Virus record (IMG/VR): IMGVR_UViG_3300005253_000273
Span: 1 to 52,257 of that record
Length of the DNA stretch: 52,257 nucleotides
Source: a virus
Lineage: Duplodnaviria; Caudoviricetes
Strand: one strand, 5' to 3'
In this document: in pieces, positions 116 through 44,885 of the stretch
How positions within the stretch are numbered: the first letter of the stretch is position 1
Layout: the number at the start of each line of letters is the position of its first letter
Made by a program: the position numbers and the translations under genes
Notes under the pieces: model-generated
The model's input: only the letters and a program-made list of their open reading frames with translations
Told to the model about the DNA's origin: nothing
The model's database searches: none

Positions 116-426
116 TGGAAATGGTCGTCTTCGCTCGCTTCGGAATGTTCCCAATGAATATTGTAGTAGTCTGCCATGAGAAGATTTATCAGAATGAGAA
201 AACAGGAGAGATCATTCGACAGGCAGACACCTATGGAAATCTTGGCAACACATTCGGTAGAGGCTTCTCAGAAATGTACCGTATGGTTAATATTCCCAAT
301 ATAGGCCGTCAGTTACAAACCCAAAAAGATGCAATGTGGAACGCAAATTCAAAGTATGCTCCAAACCCCTGCGAGCCTAGTTATCAAGCGATAGTCGCTT
401 CAATCACGGAGGCCGAAGATGCCTAA
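1..426 (+). CDS. Sak4/AAA_24-like ATPase, C-terminal part
   Basis: Continuation of the 51774 ORF. IVVVCHE motif typical of AAA_24. Sits between an exonuclease and an SSB-like gene. Confidence 0.8.
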   Translation, partial: TLDSYSGAELASLLRQKYKINAGGNKDLRHWAGAVRNEMEMVVFARFGMFPMNIVVVCHEKIYQNEKTGEIIRQADTYGNLGNTFGRGFSEMYRMVNIPNIGRQLQTQKDAMWNANSKYAPNPCEPSYQAIVASITEAEDA

Positions 427-616
427 TTTCACCCTTAACAATCAAATGTTTTATGTTTCTTGGTCTGAAGTTTTACTTGAGGCAGATTCCGATGAAAGGT
501 TTCATATTGGTAGGGCTTTAGATAGTTTAAATGAATTGAATAAATTGGGAACTGAAATTGTTCATCGAATGATTCGAGAAGACAAAATTGATTTAACCGC
601 CAACCAAGGAGAATAA
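419..616 (+). CDS. hypothetical protein
   Basis: 65 aa ORF coupled to neighbours, GGAGG upstream. Confidence 0.65.
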   Translation: MPNFTLNNQMFYVSWSEVLLEADSDERFHIGRALDSLNELNKLGTEIVHRMIREDKIDLTANQGE

Positions 617-618
617 AA

Positions 619-1245
619 ATGGCAAAAATTGGTACTATTCCGCAAGTTGTAAATGATCCATCAAGCAGCATTGATCCTGGAATTTTCGTCTTTTCTTGTG
701 AATCAATAAAGGAGGGAGATCATAAAGATCAACTTATTTATGATTCAGTGTTCAGAGTTCAAGAACCTATCGCCTATAAAGGACAGGCTCATTTTGAACG
801 CTGGTTCATTGGAACTGATAAAGACCCCGAAGCAATACTTCCTGAAACTTGGACAAGTAAAGCTGGACACATGAAGAAAGCCTGTGATGCTATGGGAGTG
901 CCTTTTCTCGGCCAGAATCCTGATATGATTATTCAGCAAATGGTCGGAAAACTGTTCTGTGCCAAGATTGTTCACAAGCAAACAACAAAAGATGGAGTTA
1001 CTTACACTAATGCTCGTGTTGTACAATATGGACAGCATGGAACCATGACGCCGGAGGTATTCGTGTCAGACAACGGTCAGTCTCCTGTTACGGCTCCAAT
1101 AGCTCCAGCTCCATTGCCTGCTGGAGCACCCGGTGTAGGTACTCCTGTGGCTCCTCAGACGGGCATGCCTGCCAGTCCGGCAGCACTTCAACAGGGAGGT
1201 CAACAGGCACCTCTGGGCCCTCCACTGCCTCCTCAGCACCAATAA
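619..1245 (+). CDS. ssDNA-binding protein-like (DUF669/OB-fold type) with Pro/Ala/Gln-rich tail
   Basis: Follows the Sak4-like gene. Beta-rich core (GIFVFSC...KGQAHFERW...MVGKLFCAKIVH...YTNARV) plus low-complexity tail. AGGAG RBS. Confidence 0.6.
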   Translation: MAKIGTIPQVVNDPSSSIDPGIFVFSCESIKEGDHKDQLIYDSVFRVQEPIAYKGQAHFERWFIGTDKDPEAILPETWTSKAGHMKKACDAMGVPFLGQNPDMIIQQMVGKLFCAKIVHKQTTKDGVTYTNARVVQYGQHGTMTPEVFVSDNGQSPVTAPIAPAPLPAGAPGVGTPVAPQTGMPASPAALQQGGQQAPLGPPLPPQHQ

Positions 1246-1372
1246 CGAGGAGGCCACAGGCAGGAGTTGTCTGGTTGACTTGTGATGTCTGCTCTCAACA
1301 GGTGGATTCAATGCAGTTTGATGAGCATACGAACAGGCATTTGACTGATCCGAAAGATCCATATTTTGTGCA

Positions 1373-1475
1373 GGTGCGGTAGGGGAGGATGCATAGAGGC
1401 GGGCACACGTCTATAGTTCTAGCAGGGCCTCCCCGGAGATGGGATCTCCTACAACCCTGTTAGGATGCTGTACCA
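1373..1475 (+). ncRNA. Structured tRNA-like element A
   Basis: GGTGCGG/CTGTACC-A closing stem; internal GGGGAGG/CCTCCCC and GGAGAT/ATCTCC stems; non-coding. Confidence 0.5.
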
Positions 1476-1487
1476 ATAAATAATGTT

Positions 1488-1560
1488 GGTTGCGTAGTAT
1501 GAGAGTCACAATACGACATGGTCGTTCCTGTTACGCTGGGGTAGTGTCCAGCCGCAAGCC
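1488..1560 (+). ncRNA. Degenerate cloverleaf (tRNA-like) element B
   Basis: GGTTGCG-TA-GTAT/ATAC (D-like), ACA(T)GG/CCTGT (anticodon-like), GCTGG/CCAGC (T-like), CGCAA(G)CC; 73 nt; loops non-canonical. Confidence 0.55.
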
Positions 1561-1574
1561 GCTTAATAAATCAA

Positions 1575-1668
1575 GGCGGGGGTAATTTCACGGCTGGCCC
1601 GGTCGTTAGAAGTATTCAGGTCCCGCCCACTTCGCAGGTGTCAAACACCTGGATACCTCTGGGCAGGA
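1575..1668 (+). ncRNA. Structured element C with alternative pairings
   Basis: GGCGGGG/TCCCGCC, ACGGCTG/CGGTCGT, CAGGTGT/ACACCTG; alternative GTATTCAGGT/ACCTGGATAC. Confidence 0.4.
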
Positions 1669-1672
1669 ATTT

Positions 1673-1787
1673 TCAGACTGTGAGCGGCGTGGTGACTTTA
1701 GAGGGTCGGCCCTCCACGGAATCGCTATAAGGCCAGTTAAGTAAAACAAACCCGGTGACTTCTGGCAAATCCGGCCTCACAGTCTGA
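1673..1787 (+). ncRNA. tRNA-like element D (TCAGACTG scaffold)
   Basis: Perfect 12-bp closing stem TCAGACTGTGAG/CTCACAGTCTGA; T-arm-like CTGG-CAAAT-CCGG next to the 3' strand. Confidence 0.65.
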
Positions 1788-1795
1788 TTTAAATT

Positions 1796-1920
1796 TGAGT
1801 TGTGGCGGCTAATTGAAATGGGCGTGGAGGAAGTGGACCGAAAGGAAAGCATGAGCCCGCAAGATATCCGATTCTAGAGTCTGATATCGGCCGTGAGCGA
1901 ATCTCCTATCCCACAACTCA
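1796..1920 (+). ncRNA. tRNA-like element E (TGAGTTGTGG scaffold)
   Basis: 10-bp closing stem TGAGTTGTGG/CCACAACTCA; GAG-CGAAT-CTC hairpin near the 3' end; internal GATATC..GATATC hairpin. Confidence 0.65.
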
Positions 1921-1945
1921 TTTTCACTTCTAATCGGAGAAAATC

Positions 1946-2158
1946 ATGGGAATGCCCGATCCAAAAGTTAGATGCTTTAAATGTGATATACAAGTTTGGG
2001 AAGCAAATGTTGACCAGTTTGATCGCTGTCCAAACTGTGATAATTCACTATGTTCTTATTGTTGGGAGAAAGAACATATAGTTGATGATTGTTACCGATG
2101 TAATACACCAGACTCAAAAGAAAAGGTTTTGCCTAATACATATAACGGAGTTTGGTAA
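1946..2158 (+). CDS. Cys-rich zinc-finger-like hypothetical protein
   Basis: Four CxxC motifs in 70 aa; GGAG RBS. Confidence 0.7.
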   Translation: MGMPDPKVRCFKCDIQVWEANVDQFDRCPNCDNSLCSYCWEKEHIVDDCYRCNTPDSKEKVLPNTYNGVW

Positions 2159-2171
2159 GACACAAATATTT

Positions 2172-2266
2172 GCCGGGTTCCACAAGATGACCCTTGGTAG
2201 GTACGGCGCGAAGACAATGAGAGTTGGGCTCTCGTAAGACCGTGGGGACAAAACCTGCCACCCGGT
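2172..2266 (+). ncRNA. tRNA-like element F (GCCGGGT scaffold)
   Basis: GCCGGGT/ACCCGGT closing stem stacked on GGTAGGT/ACCTGCC, which encloses ACGG/CCGT and GAGAG/CTCTC stems. Confidence 0.6.
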
Positions 2267-2273
2267 TTCAAAT

Positions 2274-2319
2274 TCAGACTGGTGGAATTACTCAGGTAGG
2301 ACAATCCTGCCCAGTCTGA
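2274..2319 (+). ncRNA. Minimal tRNA-like (minihelix) element G (TCAGACTG scaffold)
   Basis: TCAGACTGG/CCAGTCTGA stacked on GTAGGA-CAA-TCCTGC; TGGTGGAATT resembles the start of a tRNA-Leu D-arm; 46 nt. Confidence 0.65.
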
Positions 2320-2328
2320 TTTAAATTT

Positions 2329-2464
2329 TGAGTTGTGGGCCACATTAGAATATACACGCCTATAATTTGCTCGTCCGGCAGTTAATTGCGAAGAGGTCTT
2401 TAATGCCCGGATACGATATCAGAGAAATAAAAGACCGTTTGTATATTCGCAGGCCCACAACTTA
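2329..2464 (+). ncRNA. tRNA-like element H (TGAGTTGTGG scaffold)
   Basis: 13-bp closing stem TGAGTTGTGGGCC/GGCCCACAACTTA, flanked on both sides by TTTAAATTT. Confidence 0.6.
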
Positions 2465-2486
2465 TTTAAATTTGAAAGGAGATTTC

Positions 2487-2669
2487 ATGAAACAATGCAT
2501 TCTATTATTTATATTCGTATTTACTCTGATTGGATGTGGTGGGAAAAGCGACACACTTGGTCAACCATGTCAGCTTTATCTTCATAGTGAGGGTACTACA
2601 GATGCCCGTGAAGCGGCGTGCGAGAAGTATAACAAGGAATACCAGAAACAGAAACAATTAGCACAGTAA
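2487..2669 (+). CDS. small lipoprotein
   Basis: AAAGGAG RBS; MKQCILLFIFVFTLIG|C lipobox. Confidence 0.75.
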   Translation: MKQCILLFIFVFTLIGCGGKSDTLGQPCQLYLHSEGTTDAREAACEKYNKEYQKQKQLAQ

Positions 2670-2687
2670 AATACATTCAAGTATATT

Positions 2688-2807
2688 GCCGGGTAAAACA
2701 TCATAAGGGTATAGGTTCTTGCTAAACCGTATACCCCAAAAAGATGGGCGGTCCCTATACAATAGGTGAAATAACTGAAGAAGGGTAGTAGCTACCTGCC
2801 ACCCGGC
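2688..2807 (+). ncRNA. tRNA-like element I (GCCGGGT scaffold)
   Basis: GCCGGGT/ACCCGGC; 3' ACCTGCCACCCGG identical to element F; internal GGGTATA/TATACCC hairpin. Confidence 0.6.
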
Positions 2808-2829
2808 TTACTTATTGGAGGATTGAGAG

Positions 2830-3006
2830 ATGAACACTTGCAAGGATTGTAAGTGGTGGAATGACATCCACAAACGCATTAAAGGGGAGTGTTCTGAGAT
2901 AGGACAGAGAGGGTTAATTAGTCATCCTGAAATTCCTTATAAGACTATTTATTCTTATGAAACCTTTAAAGACTTCGGCTGTATCCATTGGGAGAAGAAA
3001 GAATGA
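2830..3006 (+). CDS. small Cys-rich protein (CxxCKWW...C...FGC..WE family)
   Basis: Translated by hand: MNTCKDCKWW...GEC...TFKDFGCIHWEKKE; GGAGG RBS; paralogous to 7242..7475. Confidence 0.7.
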   Translation: MNTCKDCKWWNDIHKRIKGECSEIGQRGLISHPEIPYKTIYSYETFKDFGCIHWEKKE

Positions 3007-3185
3007 GTAATCATGTATGGATAGTTGAATATGGTAGTGGTAAATCTTGGAAGCCCGATCCAAATAAATATGATGAATCTTTGCATCACCCAACAAGGAA
3101 AATAGCACTGGATCACAAAGAATGTAATCACTGTGGCCACCCAAATAATCTCCGTGTCTGCAAATATGTGAGGGAAGAAAGATGA
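3003..3185 (+). CDS. hypothetical protein (CxxC)
   Basis: ATGA-coupled at both ends. Confidence 0.6.
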   Translation: MSNHVWIVEYGSGKSWKPDPNKYDESLHHPTRKIALDHKECNHCGHPNNLRVCKYVREER

Positions 3186-3778
3186 ATGATCGACTGGAAG
3201 AGATTAAGAAACGCTACATTCGGGAAACTATGGATCATGATACTGCATGGCTCATTGCAGAAGTCGAGCGGTTGCGTTGTAAAGTTGTTGGTCATGAGGT
3301 TTGCCAAAAATGGTCAAACAAAGAAATCGAATCCCTGCAATCCCAACTGGCGCAGATGGAAACGGAACGGAATAATTTAAGAAGCGTGGATTTAAGTCAA
3401 CGAGAAGCGTTACAAGAACTCGAAAATAAGCTGGCGGCAGTTGGAGAAGAGTTGGCGGCTTCCCGAGTTGTTATGGACAATCAGCAGACTGCTATTGAAA
3501 AGTGCGACAACAAGCTGGCGGAGGCTGAAGAATTTATTGAAAGTCAAAGTAAGGATATTTGTGGCTATCTAAATAAAATTGCGATGGTGGAGAAGAAGTG
3601 GGATGGCGCGGAGAAGGAAAACGCCAAGCTCGAGGAGCAGGTGGAGGAGTTGGAGAATCCAAGTATAGAAGTAAAATCAATTCAATGTGATAGGTGTGGA
3701 GAAATACTTGTAAATATTCCAAAACTTCAATTACGCCATCAATGCAACGATCCAGCGCAAGGGAGCGGAAGATTATGA
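3182..3778 (+). CDS. coiled-coil protein with C-terminal Zn ribbon
   Basis: DTAWLIAEVERLR phage motif, heptad-rich middle, CDRC..HQC. Confidence 0.75.
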   Translation: MNDRLEEIKKRYIRETMDHDTAWLIAEVERLRCKVVGHEVCQKWSNKEIESLQSQLAQMETERNNLRSVDLSQREALQELENKLAAVGEELAASRVVMDNQQTAIEKCDNKLAEAEEFIESQSKDICGYLNKIAMVEKKWDGAEKENAKLEEQVEELENPSIEVKSIQCDRCGEILVNIPKLQLRHQCNDPAQGSGRL

Positions 3779-4125
3779 CTCCAGAAAAACTAAAACAACT
3801 GGCAGAATCAGCGGCGGAGTTTTTGGGGGCTGATGAGAATAATTGTATCTGGGTGCATGAAGGCGCTTCAATTGAAATAATCCCGGACAATTTATTTGGC
3901 GTAGATAATGACAAAAGGGTTGCCCCATCATACTTCATGCACCTTGGCAAGCAGGAGATGGAGAAGCTGGGGTTTAGTATTCGCTGTGAGCATAGGCTCA
4001 ATTATCAAAGAGTTTTTATTAAGAGGGATGATCTCGAAGAGGATTGGCAACTATCTCCAGTATATGTTGAAGATGAAAATGAATTCATGGCATTCTGGAG
4101 CGCATTACTGGAGGCGGTGAAATGA
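3775..4125 (+). CDS. hypothetical phage protein (ABA-sandwich-like)
   Basis: ATGA overlap; ends SALLEAVK, similar to 4291..4650. Confidence 0.65.
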   Translation: MTPEKLKQLAESAAEFLGADENNCIWVHEGASIEIIPDNLFGVDNDKRVAPSYFMHLGKQEMEKLGFSIRCEHRLNYQRVFIKRDDLEEDWQLSPVYVEDENEFMAFWSALLEAVK

Positions 4126-4289
4126 AAAAACCAACGATTGAAGAGCTTGAAAAGATTTTATCTGATCCTGCTGAAACTATAATTATTTTGCCTAATGGGG
4201 AAGTAAGGACTACTAAGGATAAAAAAGCAAAGAGTGCTAAACCTGAAGTCCTTTCCATTGATGAGGCGTTGAAAAGGAGTACTTATTAA
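4122..4289 (+). CDS. hypothetical protein
   Basis: MKKPTIEELEKIL...; GGAGG RBS and ATGA overlap. Confidence 0.55.
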   Translation: MKKPTIEELEKILSDPAETIIILPNGEVRTTKDKKAKSAKPEVLSIDEALKRSTY

Positions 4290-4290
4290 A

Positions 4291-4650
4291 ATGACTAACG
4301 AACAATGTATAGCCGTGGCGGAGAAAGTTTGGTGGTGGGAATTTGATAAAGCTCGGGCTCTTCACACAGACGGGTTAGTTTTACTACAGCGCACAGATGT
4401 TGATGAGCAAGTTGGATTAATAGGTTTAAGAATGGATATAGAATCCTGGCAAGGCTTCGGTAGGACGTTGGAGGCTATGGAAGCAAGGGGATTTGACCTC
4501 GGTATTAATTATGAACCTTTTTTATGTTTTATTAAAGGTGACATCAGTATAGAGATTATTTGGGGCCACAAGATGATTAAACTGATCGAAGCAACTCACC
4601 TCGCCGCCCTGGAAGCTGTGAGGAAGGAGAAGGAAGATGCGGAAGTGTAA
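4291..4650 (+). CDS. hypothetical phage protein (ABA-sandwich-like)
   Basis: AVAEKV.W N-terminus, HLAALEAV C-terminus; AGGAG RBS. Confidence 0.7.
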   Translation: MTNEQCIAVAEKVWWWEFDKARALHTDGLVLLQRTDVDEQVGLIGLRMDIESWQGFGRTLEAMEARGFDLGINYEPFLCFIKGDISIEIIWGHKMIKLIEATHLAALEAVRKEKEDAEV

Positions 4651-5301
4651 ACATAGAAACTACGAGTATCTTGCCATTAAGAGCACTTGTCATTCAGTTA
4701 AGTATTGTAATGATTGCGGTGGATTAAAGTGGTCGTTTAGGAGTCGCTGGTTATTGCCTAAACGCCATCTCAAGATTATGGAGGGGAAGTAGGTTGGGAA
4801 TATTTCGTAAGATTATAGCCACTTTTATTTATTTACCGATCTGCCTATTCGGTGAATTTTTAGACGGGTTGAATTGTATATGGAGAGAAAAATGACCAAC
4901 AACGAAATCATCCATGCCGCTGTCATTGCGGCTACGAAGTATTGGGAGGAGAAGTTGTGATGAAATTATTGTGTTGACTGGGTTTTCATAACTGGGATAA
5001 ATATGGGAGGGTATGAGAAACGCAATAGGAAGACTTAAATGCTTTTTTGGACGCCATGAATACCCCAATGAGTGGCTACGTTATACAAGCAACATTAGAG
5101 CTTGGCATAAAGACTGCATCTATTGTCGGCATAAAGGAAGGATATGGAAATTCGGGTGTAAATTAAAATAGCTTATGAAACCTACGAGGAAGTGATGAAA
5201 CATTTTGTTAGAAAACTCTGTAAAAAACATGCTTATGCATATATGTACGGACGAAGGCTGTTTGTGGATAGAGTCTGTTTCTTTTTCTGTTGGAGGTGTC
5301 A

Positions 5302-7233
5302 ATGATCCAATCCAACAAACAAGTCCCAGACTGGGGTGATGCTTCATCCCGCTTCATCCTCATTGGAGAGGCTCCAGGCCAAGAGGAGGAACACCGGGGA
5401 CAGCCTTTTGTAGGAGCTTCAGGACTCAAGCTCAATGAATGGTGGGCCAGAGCAGGACTTCATCGGGGAATGTTTTATATTACAAATGTTCTTCCCTTTC
5501 GGCCTTGGAATAATGATATCTCTAAGGTTCCTCAAGAAGAACTTGATTACTGGTCGGAGCATCTCAGGAAAAAGATTAGTGGTCTGCCTGATCCTTTCAT
5601 CCTGATCCCAACAGGGAAGACAGCTCTTAGGGCTCTTCTCGGAAAAGATAATATCTCAGACCTTAGAGGATCTATACTATCTTACGAAGATGGTCATCGG
5701 ACAATCAAGATGATTCCAACTATTCATCCAGCAGCAACTTTTAGGACTAAGAAGAAGAAGTTTGAAGCCAGATGTATTTATGACTGGATGCGGATTGCAT
5801 ATGAGGGGCAGTTTCAGGAAATTAAGTTACCGAAGCGTGAACATTACACAGCACCTACCGATGCAGATTGTGCGGGTTATGCAGCATCCATTTTGGCGGA
5901 GCCTAATAAGCCGTTAGCAGTAGATATTGAGACTCATCCACAGGAAGGAATTACTTGTGTGGGATTTGCTTGGTCTAAAGATTATTCATTCACAATCCCC
6001 CTCGGAATCAGGCGTCAAATCCACCTCACCGGAAATAAACCCAAGGAAGCTAGAGAACGGGAAACAAAGAAAGCCAATGACCGTATCTCCAAAGCAGTAT
6101 TCCACAAGGAACACCCTCTTGAAAGTTACCACACAAAGAAGAGAGAATTGAATGCAATTGAGAAGTGGAGAACTCAAAAGAACCCTCTTAAGACGATTTG
6201 TAGGATTGTAGAAGAATACGAACTGGAACATAAATTACCTTCAGAACCTTGGAAATCAGATTCGGGATACTTTATTACGGTTGGTTACTGGGAAACAGAG
6301 GAGCAGAATGAAAAAGCAAAAGAGATTATCAAATCGCTCATTGAAGGAGACAATCCACTCATTTTCCACCATGGATTCTATGACACTTATTGGCTTACAG
6401 ATAAGGTTTACTGGCTTAAAGAATTTATTGGATGTGAAATAAAGAATTGGTACTGGGATACCTTGGCTATGCACCATTGTCTTGTCCCCAATGAGGAACA
6501 CACACTTGACTTTCTCGCCTCTGTCTATACCTCAGAACCATTCTGGAAAAAAGAAACCAAGGAAGCAGAAGCCAGTGGGAAGTATTACAAAAAGCAGGAA
6601 GTTCTTTGGAGGTATAACGGAAAGGATGTAGCTGTCACTTTTGAGTTGTATGAGAAGTTCCTGAAGATGCTCCAGGATTCTGGAAGGATGGATTTCTATT
6701 GGAAGCATTATTACAACTTGTTTGAGCCTCTTCTAGAGCTGTCGCTAACTGGAATCAAAGCTGATACTGAGAAGAGGGATCAGAGACGGGTGGAGTTTCG
6801 AGAAGAGCTTAATAATTTATTCATCGAGATCGAGAAGCAGGCAGGAAAGGCTCTTCATGGAAAGATTGCCCTCTCTACAAAGAAAGTCCAGGAGTACCTC
6901 TATGAAGACTTGAAGCTTCCCAAACAGAAACGCTATCGGCCGGATAAAAAGGAAAAGACTTCTACAGCTGATGAGCTGGCAATCAGGACTTTGATGCTAA
7001 GGTTTCCTGAAAAGTTAAATGTGGTAGGAGAGAAGATTCTCAGGTGTCAGAGATTGAATAAGTTATTAGGGTATCTCAAAGAAGCAAAACTTGATCCTGA
7101 TGGAAGATTAAGGAGTCAATACAAATTTAATACAACTACAGGCCGTTTAGCTTCTGGCTCTAATCCCTATGGAAGTGGCGACAATGCCCAGAACCAGGAC
7201 TTGGAATTGAGGGATATTTATGTTGCGGGATAG
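5302..7233 (+). CDS. polA: Family A DNA polymerase N-terminal subunit: family-4 uracil-DNA glycosylase + 3'-5' exonuclease + thumb/palm start
   Basis: UDG motifs IGEAPG..E...G.PFVG.SG, YITNV, TIHPAA. Exo motifs DIET, FYD, YNGKD. Pol motifs TTTGRLAS, NAQN, RDIYVA. GGAGG RBS before ATG 5302. Confidence 0.92.
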   Translation: MIQSNKQVPDWGDASSRFILIGEAPGQEEEHRGQPFVGASGLKLNEWWARAGLHRGMFYITNVLPFRPWNNDISKVPQEELDYWSEHLRKKISGLPDPFILIPTGKTALRALLGKDNISDLRGSILSYEDGHRTIKMIPTIHPAATFRTKKKKFEARCIYDWMRIAYEGQFQEIKLPKREHYTAPTDADCAGYAASILAEPNKPLAVDIETHPQEGITCVGFAWSKDYSFTIPLGIRRQIHLTGNKPKEARERETKKANDRISKAVFHKEHPLESYHTKKRELNAIEKWRTQKNPLKTICRIVEEYELEHKLPSEPWKSDSGYFITVGYWETEEQNEKAKEIIKSLIEGDNPLIFHHGFYDTYWLTDKVYWLKEFIGCEIKNWYWDTLAMHHCLVPNEEHTLDFLASVYTSEPFWKKETKEAEASGKYYKKQEVLWRYNGKDVAVTFELYEKFLKMLQDSGRMDFYWKHYYNLFEPLLELSLTGIKADTEKRDQRRVEFREELNNLFIEIEKQAGKALHGKIALSTKKVQEYLYEDLKLPKQKRYRPDKKEKTSTADELAIRTLMLRFPEKLNVVGEKILRCQRLNKLLGYLKEAKLDPDGRLRSQYKFNTTTGRLASGSNPYGSGDNAQNQDLELRDIYVAG

Positions 7234-7509: not shown

Positions 7510-7827
7510 ATGGCCAGGAAAAAAGAAACACAAGCACAAAAGATGGAAAAAATGATTAAGAAAGTTTTAAAGGGGCATCAAGGTACCACGGTCTCGAATA
7601 ATGTTTTTACCGGTATAAAGTTCGATGCTGAAATTGCCTCAACAATAACAGCTATAGCGGAAGGACTTATAGAAAACGCTAAGGGCCTTCGAGCATTATC
7701 GGGATTTTTAAAGGCATCCAGCGTTAGTATTGGCTCCTTATTAGAAATAGGGGCATCGCTTGCTCCAGGAGAGGTAGAAATGGAGAAGGGAGTGAGGACA
7801 TATGACACTTTTGGAGAAGAAGAATGA
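7510..7827 (+). CDS. hypothetical protein
   Basis: 105 aa ORF, ATGA-coupled to dcd. Confidence 0.7.
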   Translation: MARKKETQAQKMEKMIKKVLKGHQGTTVSNNVFTGIKFDAEIASTITAIAEGLIENAKGLRALSGFLKASSVSIGSLLEIGASLAPGEVEMEKGVRTYDTFGEEE

Positions 7828-8306
7828 TTCTGGCTGATAAACAAATTAAAGAATTACTTGTGAATCATGAATTGCTGACTCCTTACGAACTGGAGAAGAA
7901 AGTCTTCGAGGGAGTTTCTTACGGGCTTTCAAGTTGTAGTTATGATTTGAGGTTGGACAGATTTAACGGTCCTTCACATCCGTTTAATATTCTTCCAAAT
8001 CAATTTGCTCTCGGCTGTACTCTCGAACACATTAGAATGCCCAACAACATAGTAGGACTCATCAAGGATAAGTCAACTTGGGCGCGTAGAGGACTATCCG
8101 TATTCAACACTCTAATTGATCCCGGCTTCGAAGGACAAATTACCTTAGAGTTAAAGAATCAGGGGAACGACCTACTTGCACTTCCCCGGGGAATAGGCAT
8201 TGCCCAGATCATGTTCTTTGAGTGCGGAGAAGTAGAGAATCCTTACAACGGAAAATATCAGGGCCAGCAGGGAGTGACTGGTCCTATTGAGGAGACTGGC
8301 AAATGA
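7824..8306 (+). CDS. dcd: dCTP deaminase (dCD/dUTPase superfamily)
   Basis: MILADKQI, SYGLSSCSYDLRL, KSTWARRGL, IDPGFEGQITLE, GIAQIMF, YNGKYQGQ. Confidence 0.93.
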   Translation: MILADKQIKELLVNHELLTPYELEKKVFEGVSYGLSSCSYDLRLDRFNGPSHPFNILPNQFALGCTLEHIRMPNNIVGLIKDKSTWARRGLSVFNTLIDPGFEGQITLELKNQGNDLLALPRGIGIAQIMFFECGEVENPYNGKYQGQQGVTGPIEETGK

Positions 8307-8500: not shown

Positions 8501-8685
8501 GTAAATTTGCCCTTTATTTTAAATCCACTCATTTTCCTCGAAGGCTCTTGGCAGGATACACTTTTTCAACTGAGGAAGAAGCTGAAGATTTCAAGGCACG
8601 AATGGTATCAGAGTGTTTGCGGAATGAGTATTGGGTAGAACAGATTGATATAAATTGGGATAAAGAGTTGAAGGAGCTGAAATGA
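8497..8685 (+). CDS. hypothetical protein
   Basis: ATGA coupling at both ends. Confidence 0.6.
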   Translation: MSKFALYFKSTHFPRRLLAGYTFSTEEEAEDFKARMVSECLRNEYWVEQIDINWDKELKELK

Positions 8686-9455
8686 AGCCCTTTCTGCTTG
8701 AATTGGATTTAAGCCAAGTAGAATCCCGCATCTGTTACATGCGCACAAGAAACTCTATCCTTGTGGCCCAAGCCCAGAGCCCACCTTGGGAATTTGATGG
8801 GCATACCGAGACAGCTCAGATGATCTACGGGGTGGAAAAACCTACCCCTACTCAACGATATCTAGGCAAAAAAACATCTCATGGAGTAATGAGGGGGATG
8901 CAGGGAAAGAAACTGGCTGATGAACTTTTGAAGGAAGGAACCGTAATGGCAGTCTCTGACTGTGACTGGCTGATCCAGCGGTATTTTGAAACGAAGCCAG
9001 CAATTCGAGATGTATATTTTACAGAAGTCCGTCAGCAAGTTTGGGACGAAAGAAGACTGGTTAATTCCTGGGGCCGGGTTATCGAGTGGCCTTATGATAA
9101 ATTTGGGGACGATCTCTATCGTGAGGCTTACTCGTGGCCCCTTCAGTCTGATGCTGCCGATCTGATAAATCAGCAGGGCTTGATTCCAATGTACCACTGG
9201 TTGAAAAATAGTAAAATGCATACAAAGATTCTTGCCCAAGTTCATGATTCACTTCTCTTTAATACTTGTATCGAAGAAGCCTATGATGTAGCACTGGCTT
9301 TCAAGGGATGGATTGCAAAGCCTATTGAGTATCCTGCTGGGCCGCTCTCGGTTCCAGTGACTTTTAAGATTGGAAGGACTTGGGCTGGAGATCATGAATG
9401 GAAACGATTACCGAGCAGAGAAGAATTTAATACTAAAATAGAAGAGATCATATGA
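8682..9455 (+). CDS. polA: Family A DNA polymerase C-terminal subunit (motifs A, B, C)
   Basis: Motif A LELDLSQVESR, motif B RYLGKKTSHGVMRG, Q..AAD, motif C QVHDS; AAGGAG RBS. Confidence 0.92.
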   Translation: MKPFLLELDLSQVESRICYMRTRNSILVAQAQSPPWEFDGHTETAQMIYGVEKPTPTQRYLGKKTSHGVMRGMQGKKLADELLKEGTVMAVSDCDWLIQRYFETKPAIRDVYFTEVRQQVWDERRLVNSWGRVIEWPYDKFGDDLYREAYSWPLQSDAADLINQQGLIPMYHWLKNSKMHTKILAQVHDSLLFNTCIEEAYDVALAFKGWIAKPIEYPAGPLSVPVTFKIGRTWAGDHEWKRLPSREEFNTKIEEII

Positions 9456-36596: not shown

Positions 36597-36815
36597 TTAT
36601 TTATCTTGTTTAGTATCTATCCTTTTGTGAATCCTGTCAAGTTGGGTATCTAGCTCTATACGAGTTGAACGTTCTGCCACCATCTCTGTAAGATGTTCAT
36701 GACCTTCCTGAAGTCTTGTGATATCAGGCTTTATCTCTGTTTGAAGATATTGCATAACAGACATTTTCTCGCCCCCGTTCAGAAGTTTTCTTGCTATTCT
36801 AATAAGCCAATCCAT
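36597..36815 (-). CDS. hypothetical coiled-coil protein
   Basis: TAATG-coupled to the terminase nuclease gene. Confidence 0.6.
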   Translation of the reverse strand: MDWLIRIARKLLNGGEKMSVMQYLQTEIKPDITRLQEGHEHLTEMVAERSTRIELDTQLDRIHKRIDTKQDK

Positions 36816-37492
36816 TAACTACCTCCCCGGACAAGTTGGAGATAGTCATCCATTGTATTAATCTGAAGGTCATCTCGTGAACGAATTCTAGACTGCTGTT
36901 CGATGTATTCCATTGGAGCTCCTGAGTTTCTGAGGTAATCCAAATAGGCTTGAGTTTCGTCTGAAGCCTTGGAGATGAATATCTGCTTGGGAAGGATGCT
37001 GACTGCTGAAGCTAGAGCGTCAATGATGTCTTTGATGGTGGACATGGGGAAGTCCAGGACTTCTTCCAAGAGGGCATACTGGGATTTCTTGACAAAGAGA
37101 CGGCCTTGGGAGACCACTGGCTGAAGGTGAGTTCTGATCCTGAAATCCTTGTTCATGGAGGTAGGATGGATTATGGATTGGGAAGGGAGGTTGATTCCTT
37201 TTTCGTAAGCGTCTAGGGAGACCGAATCAGCAAAGAGTCCTTGTTGGGCGTTGCCTTCGATTCCGAAGACTTCGGGTTTGTATCTAACGTTGAACTCGTA
37301 GATTTTCTGGTAGATTTTCTGGGTGGCACAGCGTTCAGCCCACACATCTCGGACGAATATTCGGTTGGCTGCGTCCGAGGAGACAGCTACAATGGCAGAT
37401 CGGGCTTTGGTTTTCTGCTTGTTCTCCTTGCCGCCTGCCGGATCTAGGAAGCAGACTGTGGAGATGAGGTAGTCTCTTGAGAGTTTCTGCAT
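36815..37492 (-). CDS. terL: terminase large subunit, RNase H-like nuclease domain (separate gene)
   Basis: FLDPAGG, SAIVAV, IEGNAQQ, K..RI, FP...DIIDALA; start at ATG 37492 or TTG 37510. Confidence 0.85.
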   Translation of the reverse strand: MQKLSRDYLISTVCFLDPAGGKENKQKTKARSAIVAVSSDAANRIFVRDVWAERCATQKIYQKIYEFNVRYKPEVFGIEGNAQQGLFADSVSLDAYEKGINLPSQSIIHPTSMNKDFRIRTHLQPVVSQGRLFVKKSQYALLEEVLDFPMSTIKDIIDALASAVSILPKQIFISKASDETQAYLDYLRNSGAPMEYIEQQSRIRSRDDLQINTMDDYLQLVRGGS

Positions 37493-37704
37493 GAGTCGAT
37501 TTCGGGCCAAGACATTCTTGGGACTGGTTGCTTATCCGGAACTTCCTTAAAGCTTGGATGTGAGAGGATAATATGGACTGCATTGTGTTCGTGAATAAAA
37601 GCACCAGAGTGGATATTTACAATCTTCACATTCTCCGGTAGATCAAGAATCTCCTCTAAATATTTAAATGTCAATCTCCCGTATACAACATTATTCGAGT
37701 CCAT
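37444..37704 (-). CDS. hypothetical protein inside the split terL locus
   Basis: 86 aa; its 3' end overlaps the nuclease gene. Confidence 0.55.
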   Translation of the reverse strand: MDSNNVVYGRLTFKYLEEILDLPENVKIVNIHSGAFIHEHNAVHIILSHPSFKEVPDKQPVPRMSWPEIDSCRNSQETTSSPQSAS

Positions 37705-38266
37705 GAATTTTCTCCCCGGTTAATATTTCATAAAGCTTTCTGGTTGCCTTGATATCCTCTAATGCGTCATGGGCATCAAGGTCTATTCCGAAGTGATGAC
37801 AGACAGTTTCCAGCTTTTGATTTGGAAGGCTGGTATCTGTTTCTATTAGATACTTGGCAAGGAATGATTGAACGTCCAACTTGGCCCACATGATGTAGGA
37901 ACCGTAGTAGTCGTTCTTGTTTCTTTTGAATGAAGCCCGGAGGAATTTGTCGTCAAAGCCTACATTGTATCCAGCAAGCACGAATTTGTCTCTGGAATCA
38001 AATCGGTCTATATGACGTTGGAGGGCTGTCTCGAACTTGTAGAGTCCTTCTTCTTGGGATTGAAAACTTTCAAAGTCTTTTTCGGTGAACTTATTCTTCA
38101 TGAGAGCTTCTGGAGAGATAATTGAATTGGGACCGGGCTTCATGAGGATTTCTGAGGATTCCACCATTTGGCCGTCTACTTCAATCAAATAACCGATTTG
38201 GATGATGTCATTTCTAAACGCATCAACTCCAGTGCATTCTGTATCGAGCCATAGCAGTTTTCCCAT
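37691..38266 (-). CDS. DEDDh 3'-5' exonuclease (DnaQ/RNase T-like)
   Basis: WLDTECTG, LAGYNVGFD, HDALEDI. Confidence 0.9.
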   Translation of the reverse strand: MGKLLWLDTECTGVDAFRNDIIQIGYLIEVDGQMVESSEILMKPGPNSIISPEALMKNKFTEKDFESFQSQEEGLYKFETALQRHIDRFDSRDKFVLAGYNVGFDDKFLRASFKRNKNDYYGSYIMWAKLDVQSFLAKYLIETDTSLPNQKLETVCHHFGIDLDAHDALEDIKATRKLYEILTGEKIHGLE

Positions 38267-43490: not shown

Positions 43491-43898
43491 TCAAGCGATA
43501 AACTTTATGTCTTCAGCCTCTAATCGCCTGATTAAGCCTCTGAGGGCTTCAGGAGTATCAACTATGATGGCATTGGTGAGTGAAGTCTGGAGGGAATAAC
43601 TAAGGCTTTCAAAGTCTTCTCGAAGCCACAAGCTTACATGGACTGTCTTGCGTCTTGCCTTGGCTTGTATAATATATTGTTTCTTAAGTTCTAATGTATC
43701 AAACATCTTGCGTCCGGCTGTAAGATTGCAGTCTACACAGCATGGAACCAAATTTGATTCATCATCAGACTCACAGTAGCACCAGGGAATAAAATGATCC
43801 AGTAAAACAGCCTTTTCTCCGCAATAATAACAACATCTGCCAAGTTCTTTCAAGAGTTTTTCAGTTTTAATTGGTCCTAGAGTCTGTCTCTTTACCAT
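43491..43898 (-). CDS. HNH endonuclease
   Basis: CYYCG...LDHFIP...NLVPCCVDCN. Confidence 0.88.
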   Translation of the reverse strand: MVKRQTLGPIKTEKLLKELGRCCYYCGEKAVLLDHFIPWCYCESDDESNLVPCCVDCNLTAGRKMFDTLELKKQYIIQAKARRKTVHVSLWLREDFESLSYSLQTSLTNAIIVDTPEALRGLIRRLEAEDIKFIA

Positions 43899-43906
43899 AA
43901 TAATCC

Positions 43907-43935
43907 ATTTTAAGCAATTTTGACCTAGATGTCAA
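43907..43935 (-). promoter_or_regulatory. sigma70-type promoter for HNH
   Basis: TTGACA-N17-TAAAAT, ending ~8 nt before the ATG. Confidence 0.6.
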
Positions 43936-44038
43936 TAAAAAGGCCCTGATTTCGCCTCTCGATCGGAAAAGAATTCATATTAACAGCCAAATACAGTATT
44001 CTAAACACCAAACCAAGCATCACACTTCTATTAGAACC

Positions 44039-44522
44039 CATATTAACAGTTAAGCTACTGATTTATAGTAGCTTAGGACTAAGTTCTAAAGTTCTTTTTG
44101 AAATAAGTAACTCATATTAACAGTTAAACCCATGATTCTAAAGGGTGGAAGACTATCTTCTAAAGTTACTAAGTTCTTTCTTACTACCTCCCCGCAGGAA
44201 ACCCTATGAGTGACTTGCTAAGAAGCTAAGCAAGCGAGTAAAATCTCCCAAGAGTAATCCTCGGACAAAGCACCTAAGTAGTTGTAGTATATAATGTTTT
44301 TTTATATAATAATTTATATACTTATACTTATTCTTACTTTCTTAACAAGTCGTTCATATACTTTCCTGGGATCAGGCATACAGAAAGAACTTAGTGACCT
44401 TAGAACTTAGTGTTTTCGCCTATGGATTCATACATTTAGCTGTATATATGACTTCCAAAAACCATTAGAACTTAGAGAACTTAGTCCTAACTCCTATTAA
44501 ATCAATACTAAATATGTTAATA
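44039..44522. repeat. nested inverted repeat (2+2 units of ~74 bp) around an AT-rich core; candidate replication origin
   Basis: 44039-44180 aligns with the reverse complement of 44383-44522; units carry CATATTAACAG and tandem CTAAGTTCT boxes. Confidence 0.7.
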
Positions 44523-44726
44523 AAGTATCTTTTTGTCTTCTTTCTATTTCAAGACATAACAGGCAACAGAGTTATTCTATTGTTTCCAAAGGTCTTGCAG
44601 GTACAATCCCACTAAGGGACTTGCTTAGCACCACTAAATCATACATACCCTAATCTAACCCTCCAAGGGTATTTTTATACCCCAATAGATTTACAGTAGG
44701 GCAAGTGGTAAATGTAACAGTTAGAC

Positions 44727-44885
44727 TGACAATATTTGTCGCTGGTGTGACGTAAGTTGTCATAGATAACTATATGATTTGATTGGATATCTTCTCAAGT
44801 ATGACAATTATTGACACTTTCGCTGAATTTTCAATAGTGTAAGTCCTTGATTTTATTCATTTGTGGTTTTGGCATGGTGATTGCA
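44727..44885 (+). promoter_or_regulatory. sigma54 promoter with upstream palindromic sites and IHF site
   Basis: TGGCATGGTGATTGCA (GG-N10-GC) at 44870-44885; AATCAAggacTTA on the minus strand at 44840-44852; TGAC-N7-GTC(A/G) at 44727 and 44748. Confidence 0.7.

What the first reader, a model, noticed from the sequence alone, without database searches (positions are those of the whole stretch)
1373..2807. Array of tRNA-like RNAs with reused closing stems and unrelated interiors
Seen: about nine GC-rich, self-complementary elements in tandem, separated by short AT spacers (TTTAAATTT three times; AATAAAT twice). Three scaffolds each occur twice with unrelated interiors. TCAGACTG..CAGTCTGA: 1673-1787 (115 nt) and 2274-2319 (46 nt). 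TGAGTTGTGG..CCACAACT(C/T)A: 1796-1920 and 2329-2464. GCCGGGT..ACCTGCCACCCGG: 2172-2266 and 2688-2807. Several place a T-arm-like helix (GGTAGG/CCTGCC, or loops CAAAT/CGAAT) next to the 3' strand of the closing stem. Established: acceptor stem plus T-arm is what RNase P, RNase Z and the CCA-adding enzyme recognise. Inference: a phage small-RNA cassette system in which tRNA-mimic ends allow processing and stabilisation of variable cargo RNAs (decoys for anticodon nucleases or other defence proteins, antisense RNAs, or aptamers). None has a canonical TTC T-loop or anticodon loop, so tRNA finders would probably miss them.
Basis: partly seen in the sequence, partly recalled or inferred. Interest (0 to 1): 0.9.

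Follow-up and report, generated by a model that had tools for sequence, protein, structure and literature searches.

The report
Phage RNA modules with reused stems
An uncultivated marine-sediment phage carries a row of folded, non-coding RNA-like modules whose closing stems are kept letter for letter while their insides differ completely; they are not tRNAs, and what they do is still unknown.

Summary
Nine stem-closed, GC-rich modules lie at 1368-2807 on the + strand. Three stem types (A, B, C) each occur twice with interiors that show no similarity. A related phage (L001/L011) has the same three stem types, again with different A and B interiors.

The modules are selected structures. Stems show compensatory changes, the + strand folds much better than the - strand, and interiors have 39-59% GC against 31% at four-fold sites. 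ARAGORN and Rfam find nothing, and no module has a T-loop, so tRNA mimicry is not shown here.

Small ORFs come and go between modules in co-occurring relatives, and one module (E1) is missing from an otherwise identical genome.

My best reading (0.45): these are independently folding RNA modules in the early operon. Sequence-specific stem "handles" and AU-rich linkers would serve as processing or boundary signals, and the bodies are free to change. No RNA data exist, so processing and function are inferred.

Side finding: distant relatives carry non-canonical tRNA-like elements. In L086, two tandem copies share an identical tRNA-Leu-like acceptor/D/T scaffold around unrelated bodies.

The parts
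1275..1382 (+). Small ORF (35 aa, TTG start, AGGAG 8 nt upstream) with a C-x2-C...H-x3-H pattern. Its last codons form the 5' strand of E1's closing stem.
   Evidence: The same ORF is present in L001. In 1337-1373 the 2 differences from L001 are both synonymous (my reading).
1368..1473 (+). Module E1, a Y-shaped fold. A 12-bp helix (AGTTCTAGCAGG / CCTGTTAGGAT) has 3 compensatory double changes against L001. The homologous 99 nt are absent from L011.
   Evidence: helix 3: 12 pairs, 3 double changes, 2 single, 0 broken. for the 99-nt gap; interior z 9.3.
1484..1566 (+). Module E2. It is stem-closed in both phages but the interior cannot be aligned.
   Evidence: 106 of 200 shuffles score at least as high.
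1573..1670 (+). Module E3, the best conserved module. The blocks CGGCTGGCCCRGTCGTTAG and CTCTGGGCAGGAATTTT are shared with L001. A 14-bp helix has 2 double changes.
   Evidence: helix 10; z 30.
1673..1787 (+). Module A1. Handle TCAGACTGTGAG / CTCACAGTCTGA (12 bp, then a C bulge and GGC/GCC) around a 75-nt body.
   Evidence: I4; z -2.82; the handle strands are identical in L001.
1788..1795 (+). AU-rich linker TTTAAATT between A and B. Together with both flanking strands it forms a 31-nt block identical in L001.
   Evidence: ATTTAAATTTGA occurs only at 1787 and 2464 in the window.
1796..1920 (+). Module B1. Handle TGAGTTGTGG / CCACAACTCA (10 bp) around a 105-nt body.
   Evidence: I15..
1946..2158 (+). 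Protein gene inside the array (70 aa, Cys-rich zinc-ribbon type).
   Evidence: 2 homologues at 75% and 64%; the seven shared Cys and His44 invariant.
2172..2266 (+). Module C1. P1 GCCGGGT / ACCCGGT, P2 CAAG / CTTG, P3 GGTAGG / CCTGCC stacked on the 3' strand of P1.
2274..2319 (+). Module A2, the minimal A module (46 nt): a 9-bp handle plus the hairpin GGTAGGA-CAA-TCCTGCC.
   Evidence: I9; z -2.61.
2329..2464 (+). Module B2. A 13-bp handle (one G.U) around a 110-nt AT-richer body.
   Evidence: I10; z -5.0, 0 of 200 shuffles fold as well.
2487..2669 (+). Protein gene inside the array (60 aa). It starts with a signal peptide and a LIGC lipobox-like motif; AAGGAG lies upstream.
   Evidence: my reading. 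No Pfam hit.
2688..2807 (+). Module C2. P1 GCCGGGT / ACCCGGC, P2 CATC / GATG, P3 GGCGG / CTGCC. Its body is homologous to the C module of L001.
   Evidence: 142 bits here, 114 bits in L001; z 6.3.
2830..3006 (+). Small Cys-bearing ORF just after C2. Its ends are conserved and its middle is replaced in relatives.
   Evidence: joints 2846, 2859, 2861 and 2863 to 2971-2977.

Best explanation
The region is an array of independently folding RNA modules embedded in the rightward (+) early/replication operon of a roughly 52-kb tailed phage, probably podovirus-like.

Each module has two parts. The first is a sequence-conserved closing stem, the "handle" (three types: A, B, C). The second is a body, which is either conserved (E1, E3, C2) or free to be replaced (A, B, C1, E2).

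Modules are joined by 8-12-nt AU-rich linkers or by small SD-led accessory genes.

Inferred mechanism: the long transcript folds module by module. Host endoribonucleases, or a sequence-specific factor, act at the handles and AU-rich linkers. This would release stable structured RNAs and leave each small mRNA capped by stable structures. The same conserved handles and linkers serve as recombination points at which ORFs and bodies are exchanged among co-infecting relatives.

Shown: structure under selection, + strand sense, handle conservation, cassette turnover.
Inferred: transcription, cleavage, and any cis or trans function.
For: 1. Stems are real and far above chance.

2. Pairing is selected.
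- E1-E3 against L001: 71 pairs, all paired in both sequences, 8 with changes on both sides. Only 2 of 500 shuffles reach this.
- B-stem extensions covary: GTGG/CCAC, GTGGGCC/GGCCCAC, GTGAGGG/CCCTCAC.
- C P2 covaries: CATC/GATG against CAAG/CTTG (reading).

3. The + strand is the folding strand.
- Consensus energy is -78.6 kcal/mol on the + strand and -47.1 on the - strand.
- G.U pairs in B2, C1 and C2-P3 would be A.C on the other strand.

4. Handle sequence is invariant in 3 of 3 copies of each type (2 paralogues plus L001). Four-fold sites between the two phages are only 48-53% identical. The A3'-linker-B5' block is 31 nt identical.

5. Bodies are not at mutational equilibrium: 39-59% GC against 31% at four-fold sites and 34% in another non-coding region.

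6. Turnover happens at module boundaries.
- L001 has an ORF between E3 and A. The window has ORFs between B and C.
- The E1 homologue (99 nt) is missing from L011, which is otherwise 100% and 99.98% identical to L001 over 1084 and 5762 nt.
- Contigs of one run (X3) join 1680 to 2312, 1796 to 2787, 1804 to 2674 and 2824 to 3003. A contig of run X4 shows yet another sequence after the same 5' strand at 1680.

7. No promoter or terminator excess in 400-5400: 10 promoter-like sites against 10.6 expected, and 1 terminator-like site against 3.5. All neighbouring genes are on the + strand. This fits read-through transcription.

8. A distant relative (L044) also has long stem-closed elements between small early ORFs.
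Against: - There are no RNA data at all, so transcription, ends and stability are unshown.
- Only two independent genomes carry the array, plus 30-letter glimpses of others. Covariation therefore rests on two or three sequences, and the tested structure was predicted from those same sequences.
- Fold z-scores of 5 of 9 modules are weak (-0.2 to -1.7).
- The 31-nt identical block is only the 6th longest identical run between the two phages.
- With neutral sites near saturation, "unrelated" interiors between genomes could be drift plus indels rather than replacement.
- A purely cis boundary role does not explain five modules in a row without ORFs. It also does not explain the conserved bodies of E1, E3 and C2.
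- The phage encodes no recognisable RNA-processing or RNA-binding enzyme.
Confidence: 0.45

Rival explanations
1. The modules are tRNA mimics: the handle plus the adjacent helix imitates acceptor stem plus T-arm. RNase P, RNase Z and the CCA-adding enzyme then excise and stabilise variable cargo RNAs that act in trans as decoys, antisense RNAs or aptamers.
For: - Type C has a 7-bp P1 with a 5-6-bp helix abutting its 3' strand without a gap, about 12 stacked bp. It also has a 4-bp P2 placed 4 nt after the 5' strand. These are tRNA-like helix lengths (reading).
- A2 has a 7-bp hairpin abutting its 3' strand.
- Position -1 is U before all three C modules.
- The design exists in this phage supergroup. 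L086 has two tandem Rfam tRNA hits (35.7 and 34.9 bits) whose 28-nt 5' and 37-nt 3' parts are identical and whose 62- and 79-nt bodies are unrelated.
- Acceptor plus T-arm motifs occur 12 times on the + strand and 0 times on the - strand of 80 relatives. Shuffles give a mean of 0.95.
Against: - In the window no module has a 7-nt T-loop or the TTCRA motif. My acceptor plus T-arm scan finds 0 in the window and 0 in L001.
- ARAGORN finds 0 at default settings and with introns. Its relaxed-threshold hits (2 and 4) are at or below shuffled means of 3.15 and 5.4.
- Rfam tRNA gives no hit up to E=10.
- No encoded CCA.
- A and B handles are continuous 9-15-bp stems with multi-branched interiors, not a top half.
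- The CAAAT and CGAAT loops are 5-nt loops on 3-4-bp stems. That 5-mer pattern is expected about 3 times by chance in 1.4 kb (my estimate).
Confidence: 0.18
2. The feature acts at the DNA level. The conserved inverted repeats and linkers would be recombination linkers (PeSL-like), hairpin-forming single-stranded DNA sites, or relics of small palindromic mobile elements. On this view the RNA folds are a by-product.
For: - Cassette order and content differ among co-occurring genotypes, with break points at handles and linkers.
- The E1 indel in L001 is flanked by a 4-nt direct repeat (GATA), as expected for slippage across a hairpin.
- The ORF insert in L001 is flanked by GACT.
- A protein-coding cassette (2830-3006) shows the same pattern of conserved ends and a variable middle.
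- PeSLs are described as points of exchange between unrelated sequences in hyperplastic regions (abstract of PMC4122927).
Against: - Compensatory changes inside stems, G.U-only pairs and the strong strand asymmetry of folding point to a single-stranded + sense molecule.
- No integrase, transposase, HUH protein or reverse transcriptase was found among the 96 ORFs scanned.
- Copies are confined to one locus, with no dispersed copies.
- No target-site duplication around A, B or C.
- No promoter or terminator signal at the junctions.
- The high GC of the bodies is unexplained by this model.
Confidence: 0.15
3. The modules are decaying remnants, for example of former tRNA-like or other RNA genes, or of deleted ORF cassettes. 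Only local hairpins would still matter (mRNA 3' protection, RNase III-type sites), and the bodies would have no function.
For: - E1 is dispensable: it is absent from L011 and from a second genotype.
- A2 has almost no body.
- The A, B and E2 bodies show no conservation.
- Neutral divergence is near saturation.
- Relatives do carry tRNA-like genes at comparable positions.
Against: - Bodies keep 39-59% GC against 31% at neutral sites.
- E1, E3 and C2 bodies are conserved well above neutral (z 9.3, 30 and 6.3).
- B2 and the B module of L001 fold far better than shuffles (z -5.0 and -4.15).
- Handle sequences are invariant across paralogues.
Confidence: 0.12

Closest known systems
Phage T4 RNA C and RNA D (small stable RNAs in the tRNA gene region)
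   Same: Non-tRNA small RNAs encoded in a phage RNA-gene cluster among small ORFs, with unknown roles. [quoted passage not shown]
   Different: The T4 RNAs sit among true tRNA genes. This window has no tRNA at all. Nothing like reused handles with swapped bodies is described in the passages I saw.
PeSLs (promoter-early stem-loop motifs) of T4-like phages
   Same: Short conserved intergenic motifs that flank indels and replacements of small accessory genes in hyperplastic regions, and serve as points of exchange (abstract of PMC4122927; search listing of PMC2839356).
   Different: PeSLs are composite terminator/promoter sequences. Here no promoter or terminator signal lies at the junctions. The conserved strands are the two halves of long-range stems that enclose 28-154 nt of non-coding, GC-rich sequence.
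RNase III processing hairpins between early genes of phage T7 (recalled, not checked in a paper here)
   Same: Structured intergenic elements in a polycistronic early transcript of a phage with a T7-type replication and terminase module. They lie just upstream of ribosome-binding sites. A2 (9-bp stem, one-sided internal loop, 7-bp stem) resembles such a site in outline.
   Different: T7 sites are single irregular hairpins of about 50-60 nt. Most modules here are multi-branched and 95-180 nt long, occur several in a row without genes, and have sequence-invariant stems.
tRNA-linked cargo RNAs (murine gammaherpesvirus 68 tRNA-miRNA genes; recalled) and the L086 pair found here
   Same: A processing scaffold reused with different cargo. 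L086:1891-2003 and 2021-2150 share identical tRNA-Leu-like acceptor, D and T arms around unrelated bodies.
   Different: The window's handles have no T-loop or D-arm and fail every tRNA test.
Integron attC sites
   Same: Imperfect inverted repeats of variable length and interior that punctuate arrays of small cassettes and act as folded single strands.
   Different: The R''/R' core motifs (RYYYAAC / GTTRRRY, recalled) are not matched and would be in the wrong order. No tyrosine recombinase was found. Several modules lie in a row without ORFs.

Membership tests
tRNA / tRNA-like (Rfam RF00005) | Cloverleaf detectable by tRNA finders | tested here: not met
   ARAGORN finds 0 genes in the window and 0 in L001, and 0 with introns allowed. 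Relaxed-threshold hits (2 and 4) do not exceed shuffled means of 3.15 and 5.4.
tRNA / tRNA-like (Rfam RF00005) | Match to the tRNA covariance model | tested here: not met
   No tRNA hit at gathering score or up to E=10 in 1250-2900 and L001:5380-6480.
tRNA / tRNA-like (Rfam RF00005) | T-arm: 5-bp stem with a 7-nt TTCRANY loop abutting a 7-bp acceptor stem | tested here: not met
   My pattern scan finds 0 in the window and 0 in L001, against 12 in the 80 relatives.
tRNA / tRNA-like (Rfam RF00005) | About 12 bp of coaxial acceptor plus T-stem helix | tested here: inconclusive
   Type C has 7 + 5-6 bp without a gap in 3 of 3 copies, and A2 has 9 + 7 bp (reading). The loops are 3 nt or more than 40 nt, not 7 nt.
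tRNA / tRNA-like (Rfam RF00005) | Cleavage by RNase P or RNase Z, and CCA addition | not testable with these tools
   No encoded CCA follows any of the 9 modules. No RNA run holds the region.
Any Rfam 15 family (ribozymes, Y RNA, GOLLD, ROOL, riboswitches and others) | Covariance-model match | tested here: not met
   0 of 4227 families at gathering score in the whole window. Only 3 and 1 chance-level hits (E 0.32-9.5) in permissive mode.
PeSL | Composite early promoter plus terminator stem-loop | tested here: not met
   No sigma-70-like site at the A/B junctions. One weak site at 2658-2687. One terminator-like site, on the - strand. The scan is simple and the host is unknown.
PeSL | Flanks indels and replacements between close relatives | tested here: met
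Integron attC | Integron integrase plus R''/R' core sites | tested here: not met
   No recombinase among the 96 ORFs scanned. The core motifs are recalled and were compared by eye only.
MITE or other palindromic mobile element | Dispersed copies with terminal inverted repeats and target-site duplication | tested here: not met
   Handle motifs occur only in this locus. No duplication around A, B or C. Interiors are unrelated.
T7-type RNase III site | Intergenic irregular hairpin cut by RNase III | not testable with these tools
   The position fits and A2 resembles such a site in outline. Cleavage was not tested.

The most novel reading that the evidence does not exclude
These phages may use a general "handle plus swappable body" RNA cassette system. 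Short sequence-specific stems (types A, B and C here; a complete tRNA-Leu-like acceptor/D/T scaffold in L086) would be the invariant part read by processing or stabilising machinery. The bodies would be exchanged or would diversify quickly within the population as trans-acting RNAs in the phage-host arms race, for example as decoys or inhibitors of host RNA-targeting defences. This would sit beside equally hypervariable small zinc-binding proteins in the same locus.
Probability: 0.17. Interest if true: 0.85.

Novelty: new variant of a known kind. Interest (0 to 1): 0.55.

Why it matters
Phage non-coding RNAs other than tRNAs are poorly known. An array in which stems are held constant in sequence while bodies turn over would be a natural example of modular RNA design, combining a processing or stability handle with a cargo. 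It lies in the early, hypervariable part of a phage genome, where host-takeover and anti-defence functions usually sit.

The side finding may be the easier entry point. ARAGORN misses all of the 9 non-canonical elements, and only the two L086 copies reach the Rfam tRNA cut-off. They are tRNA-like elements with canonical acceptor and T arms and aberrant bodies, found in 8 distinct relatives. Their scaffolds make clear biochemical predictions for RNase P, RNase Z and CCA addition.

If instead the modules are only boundary or recombination elements, they extend the PeSL idea beyond T4-like phages to long-range RNA stems.

Tried and rejected
RNA evidence
- Only DNA-type runs hold the stretch, so no RNA holder is listed. 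Laying four runs gave contigs only.

More homologues
- 0 viral loci for the protein encoded at 619-1245, the gene just upstream of the array.
- only L011.
- 11 of 12 hits were unrelated coding DNA.
- only L014.
- 0.
- 0 in genome contigs.
- 11 of 11 were chance matches in GC-rich genomes.
- no phage record; best PolA hit 31% (a Microcystis phage).
As a result I could not fetch the JGI and Logan contigs that carry closer PolA relatives (P0008-P0014) or the 50,174-bp contig of P0129.

Models and scans
- Covariance model R1 (C2 plus the C module of L001) does not recover C1. C1 therefore shares only its ends.
- The scan for inverted-repeat clusters in relatives was confounded by AT-rich low complexity (L047). 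After a GC filter only a few loci remain.

Ideas dropped
- Bacteroidetes-type -7 promoter box (TAnnTTTG, recalled) in TAAATTTG: dropped because every ORF here has a strong Shine-Dalgarno sequence.
- Archaeal TATA box: same reason, plus a lipobox gene.
- CRISPR-like array: only 2 direct copies, 532 nt apart.
- Hammerhead-like CUGAU...CGAAU in B1: by eye only, no Rfam support.
- Antisense pairing of A2 with the start of ORF 2830 (8-9 nt, I6): chance level by my estimate.
- A single large RNA such as GOLLD or ROOL: no Rfam hit.
- An alternative E3 helix (GGCGGG/CCCGCC, with one double change against L001) conflicts with helix 10. This is left unresolved.

Literature
- Searches found no description of such arrays.
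- In PMC10690425 I saw passages only. Its supplementary table of about 10,000 candidate RNAs was not opened and could list this motif.

Full report
WHAT THE WINDOW IS

The assembly holds only this 52,257-bp contig. It is a tailed-phage genome. Its genes include an SU10-type portal and adaptor, a capsid protein, a T7-type terminase domain and an HNH endonuclease (43494-43898, - strand). They also include a PD-(D/E)XK nuclease, a DUF3987 (putative primase/helicase-type) protein and a family A DNA polymerase fused to a UDG domain. The polymerase is split into 5290-7233 and 8682-9455.

No reverse transcriptase, integrase, transposase, RNA ligase, CCA-adding enzyme or Ro60 homologue appeared among the 96 ORFs scanned. 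The best GenBank phage match to the polymerase is 31% identical, so this is an uncultivated lineage. Runs that hold the sequence are marine-sediment metagenomes.

An AT-rich region with iterons at about 43,900-44,850 separates leftward genes from rightward ones. The finding lies inside the rightward block, which runs across the contig end to about 10,860.

THE OBSERVATION

I name the nine modules as follows:
- E1: 1368-1473
- E2: 1484-1566
- E3: 1573-1670
- A1: 1673-1787
- B1: 1796-1920
- C1: 2172-2266
- A2: 2274-2319
- B2: 2329-2464
- C2: 2688-2807

The closing stems are 12 bp (A1), 10 bp (B1), 9 bp (A2), 13 bp with one G.U (B2) and 7 bp (C1, C2).

Perfect inverted repeats of 10 bp or more with a 20-200-nt loop number 3 in this 1.4 kb. 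Shuffles give a mean of 0.2, and there are 8 in the other 50.8 kb. The handle motifs occur nowhere else in the genome.

Same-type interiors are no more alike than shuffled sequence. GC is 0.52-0.54 here against 0.39-0.43 around it.

- The B1-C1 and B2-C2 gaps hold real, SD-led genes. ORF 1946-2158 has homologues at 75% and 64% identity with the seven shared Cys and His44 invariant. ORF 2487-2669 begins with a lipoprotein-type signal.
- E1 overlaps the end of a conserved 35-aa ORF (1275-1382).
- The order of elements is periodic: A B orf C, A B orf C, orf.

NOT A KNOWN RNA

ARAGORN finds no tRNA or tmRNA in the window or L001, and none with introns allowed. At strongly relaxed thresholds it gives 2 and 4 hits, against shuffled means of 3.15 and 5.4.

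Rfam 15 gives 0 hits at gathering score for the whole window. In permissive mode it gives only chance-level hits (E 0.32-9.5).

A RELATIVE

The protein encoded just upstream of the array (619-1245) has only 5 homologues besides itself among 5.8 billion clusters. One lies on a marine-sediment contig, fetched as L001. The same phage is in IMG/VR as a 50,385-bp contig (L011/L014).

The proteins are 75-89% identical, but four-fold degenerate sites are only 48-53% identical. Neutral sequence is therefore close to saturation.

Against that background:
- Window 1201-1684 aligns to L001 at 72.6%. The E1 and E3 bodies are clearly homologous (z 9.3 and 30), as are C2 and the C module of L001 (z 6.3).
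- L001 has A, B and C modules with the same handles as the window: GACTGTGAGCGGCGTGG...CCTCACAGTCTGA, TGAGTTGTG...CACAACTCA, and GCCGGGT...CCGCCACCCGG. The A and B bodies, of 113 and 154 nt, are unrelated to either window copy.
- The A3'-linker-B5' block is identical over 31 nt. That is notable but not unique, since it is the 6th longest identical run in about 14 kb of aligned sequence.

STRUCTURE IS SELECTED, ON THE + STRAND

For E1-E3 the RNAalifold consensus has 71 pairs, all formed in both phages. Eight of them changed on both sides, and 2 of 500 column shuffles reach that value. Sliding the partners by 1-3 columns gives 0-3 such pairs. The tested structure was derived from these same two sequences, which flatters it.

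The best single helix is in E1. It has 12 pairs: 3 double changes, 2 single changes and none broken.

The reverse strand folds to -47.1 kcal/mol, against -78.6 for the + strand.

By direct reading:
- The inner extensions of the B handle covary: GTGG/CCAC, GTGGGCC/GGCCCAC, GTGAGGG/CCCTCAC.
- P2 of type C covaries: CATC/GATG in C2 and L001, CAAG/CTTG in C1.
- Several pairs are G.U on the + strand only: position 2 of B2, pair 1 of C1 and of the L001 C module, and P3 of C2.

The outer 8-10 bp of each handle are invariant in 3 of 3 copies. The constraint is therefore on sequence, not only on pairing.

BODIES

All nine bodies have more GC (39-59%) than four-fold sites (31%) or the other large non-coding region (34%). 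Some fold far better than shuffles: B2 z -5.0 and the L001 B module z -4.15, the latter with GNRA-type loops. Others do not (B1 -0.84, C1 -0.66).

The bodies are therefore not neutral filler. For A, B, C1 and E2, however, their sequence is not conserved. Between genomes, drift plus indels could produce this. The paralogues within one genome, with their perfectly kept handles, argue for constraint on handles only, or for replacement of bodies.

TURNOVER

L011 is identical to L001 over 1084 nt and 99.98% identical over 5762 nt. It lacks exactly the 99 nt that correspond to E1, and the break is flanked by GATA on both sides.

L001 has a 49-aa ORF inserted between E3 and A. The ORF's stop codon forms the base of the A stem. 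L001 has B directly followed by C, and C followed by a different gene order.

Logan contigs of the sediment runs show further genotypes:
- Contigs of run X3 join 1680 to 2312, 1796 to 2787, 1804 to 2674 (depth 177) and 2824 to 3003.
- A contig of run X4 shows another sequence after the same A 5' strand at 1680.
- Two kinds of contig lack E1 after 1373.
- At least four alternative middles exist for ORF 2830-3006, whose Cys-bearing ends are kept.

The locus is a hyperplastic region, and its break points lie at module boundaries.

HOW IT MOST LIKELY WORKS (INFERENCE)

All genes here are on the + strand. There is no excess of promoter-like or terminator-like sites, so the array should be transcribed through.

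The linkers are AU-rich: AAUAAAUAAU, UUAAUAAAUCAA, AAUUU, UUUAAAUU, UUCAAAUU. They lie between stable stems. In known bacterial polycistronic precursors such linkers are typical RNase E-type entry sites (established knowledge, recalled). Each ORF's SD lies 8-25 nt after a handle, and each stop codon lies 12-18 nt before the next handle.

I therefore read the modules as RNA-level punctuation. Handles and linkers direct cleavage, or block exonucleases. This would give stable structured RNAs and structure-capped mini-mRNAs. The same conserved sequences would let recombination swap what lies between them.

The invariance of handle sequence suggests a sequence-specific reader. The small zinc-binding proteins encoded in and next to the array are candidates, but this is pure speculation.

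The conserved bodies of E1, E3 and C2 suggest that at least these have a function of their own, in cis or in trans.

Confidence in this overall reading is 0.45. Rivals:
- The tRNA-mimic cargo model: 0.18.
- A DNA-level recombination or hairpin element: 0.15.
- Decaying remnants with only local hairpin function: 0.12.

RELATIVES AND THE tRNA IDEA

The 80 loci found through the polymerase (25-44% identity) share no sequence with the array. ARAGORN finds 3 tRNAs in 3 of the 60 loci L015-L074. It finds 0 in a second batch of 21 loci, L075-L094 plus L014.

A scan for an ORF-free, GC-rich gap singled out L086:1789-2244. Rfam finds two tRNA hits there (35.7 and 34.9 bits) in which 43 and 72 nt replace the anticodon arm.

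The two L086 copies are identical over 28 nt at the 5' end, covering the acceptor and a tRNA-Leu-like D arm. They are also identical over 37 nt at the 3' end, covering the GGTTCGAATCC T arm, the acceptor and the trailer. Their bodies, of 62 and 79 nt, are unrelated: 296 of 300 shuffles score at least as high.

A pattern scan for a 7-bp acceptor plus canonical T-arm, 40-320 nt apart, gives 12 rows on the polymerase strand and 0 on the other strand. Shuffles give a mean of 0.95. Of the 12 rows:
- One is a true tRNA (L015).
- One is a composite spanning both L086 copies.
- L066 and L068 are the same sequence.

That leaves 9 non-canonical elements of 57-168 nt in 8 distinct phages. ARAGORN calls none of them, and only the two in L086 reach Rfam's cut-off.

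The design "scaffold kept, body swapped" therefore does exist with a real tRNA scaffold in this phage supergroup. The window's own modules fail the same scan (0 hits), so they cannot be filed as tRNA-like.

NOVELTY

No Rfam family matches and no similar phage record exists. My literature searches found no description. Supplements were not opened.

The nearest known things are T4 RNA C and RNA D, PeSLs, T7 RNase III sites and tRNA-linked viral cargo RNAs. The array shares something with each and is a member of none. I rate it a new variant of a known kind (structured phage intergenic or small RNAs).

The interest is moderate to good. It is limited by the very small number of genomes and the absence of any expression data.

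Noticed in passing
L086:1891-2003 and L086:2021-2150 (+): Two tandem tRNA-Leu-like genes with identical 28-nt 5' and 37-nt 3' scaffolds (acceptor, D arm, canonical T arm, trailer). Unrelated 62- and 79-nt bodies replace the anticodon arm. Rfam tRNA scores are 35.7 and 34.9 bits; ARAGORN calls neither.
   Followed up: partly
L016:6006-6062, L031:1025-1105, L037:2107-2173, L039:4473-4536, L057:2459-2626, L066:665-761 (same sequence in L068), L090:3619-3747: Elements with a 7-bp acceptor-like stem and a canonical T-arm but aberrant length (57-168 nt) and body. All lie on the polymerase strand, 2-7 kb upstream of the polymerase gene. Neither ARAGORN nor Rfam at gathering score calls them. L057 looks like a tRNA-Leu-type D arm split by an insert of about 55 nt.
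   Followed up: partly
L001:5530-5628 against L011: A 99-nt module (the E1 homologue) is present in one assembly and exactly absent from another that is otherwise identical. The break is flanked by a 4-nt direct repeat.
   Followed up: yes
window 2830-3006: A small ORF whose Cys-bearing N- and C-terminal ends are conserved while the middle is replaced. L001 has a longer, different middle, and contigs of run X3 show at least four alternative joints.
   Followed up: partly
window 43900-44850: An AT-rich (34% GC), ORF-free region between leftward and rightward genes. AGAACTTAG-type repeats occur in both orientations, CATATTAACAG occurs three times, and there is a 122-nt imperfect inverted repeat (44109-44230 / 44333-44454). 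It is probably the divergent control region and/or the origin.
   Followed up: no
window 5290-7233 and 8682-9455: The family A DNA polymerase (with an N-terminal UDG domain) is split into two genes. Five other ORFs, one of them a dCTP deaminase-like gene (7824-8306), lie between them. The closest relatives are also about 633 aa, while more distant ones are about 900 aa in one piece.
   Followed up: partly
window 36815-37510 and 37691-38266 (-): The terminase large subunit may also be in two ORFs separated by about 180 nt. Only the RNaseH-like half gave a Pfam hit.
   Followed up: no
window 2487-2669: A 60-aa ORF that begins with a signal peptide and a LIGC lipobox-like motif. It is a possible phage lipoprotein (superinfection-exclusion type) and points to a bacterial host.
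   Followed up: no
L044:3866-3960 and 4172-4283: A distant relative also has long stem-closed non-coding elements (for example a stem of about 15 bp around 45 nt) between small early ORFs. No T-run follows them.
   Followed up: partly
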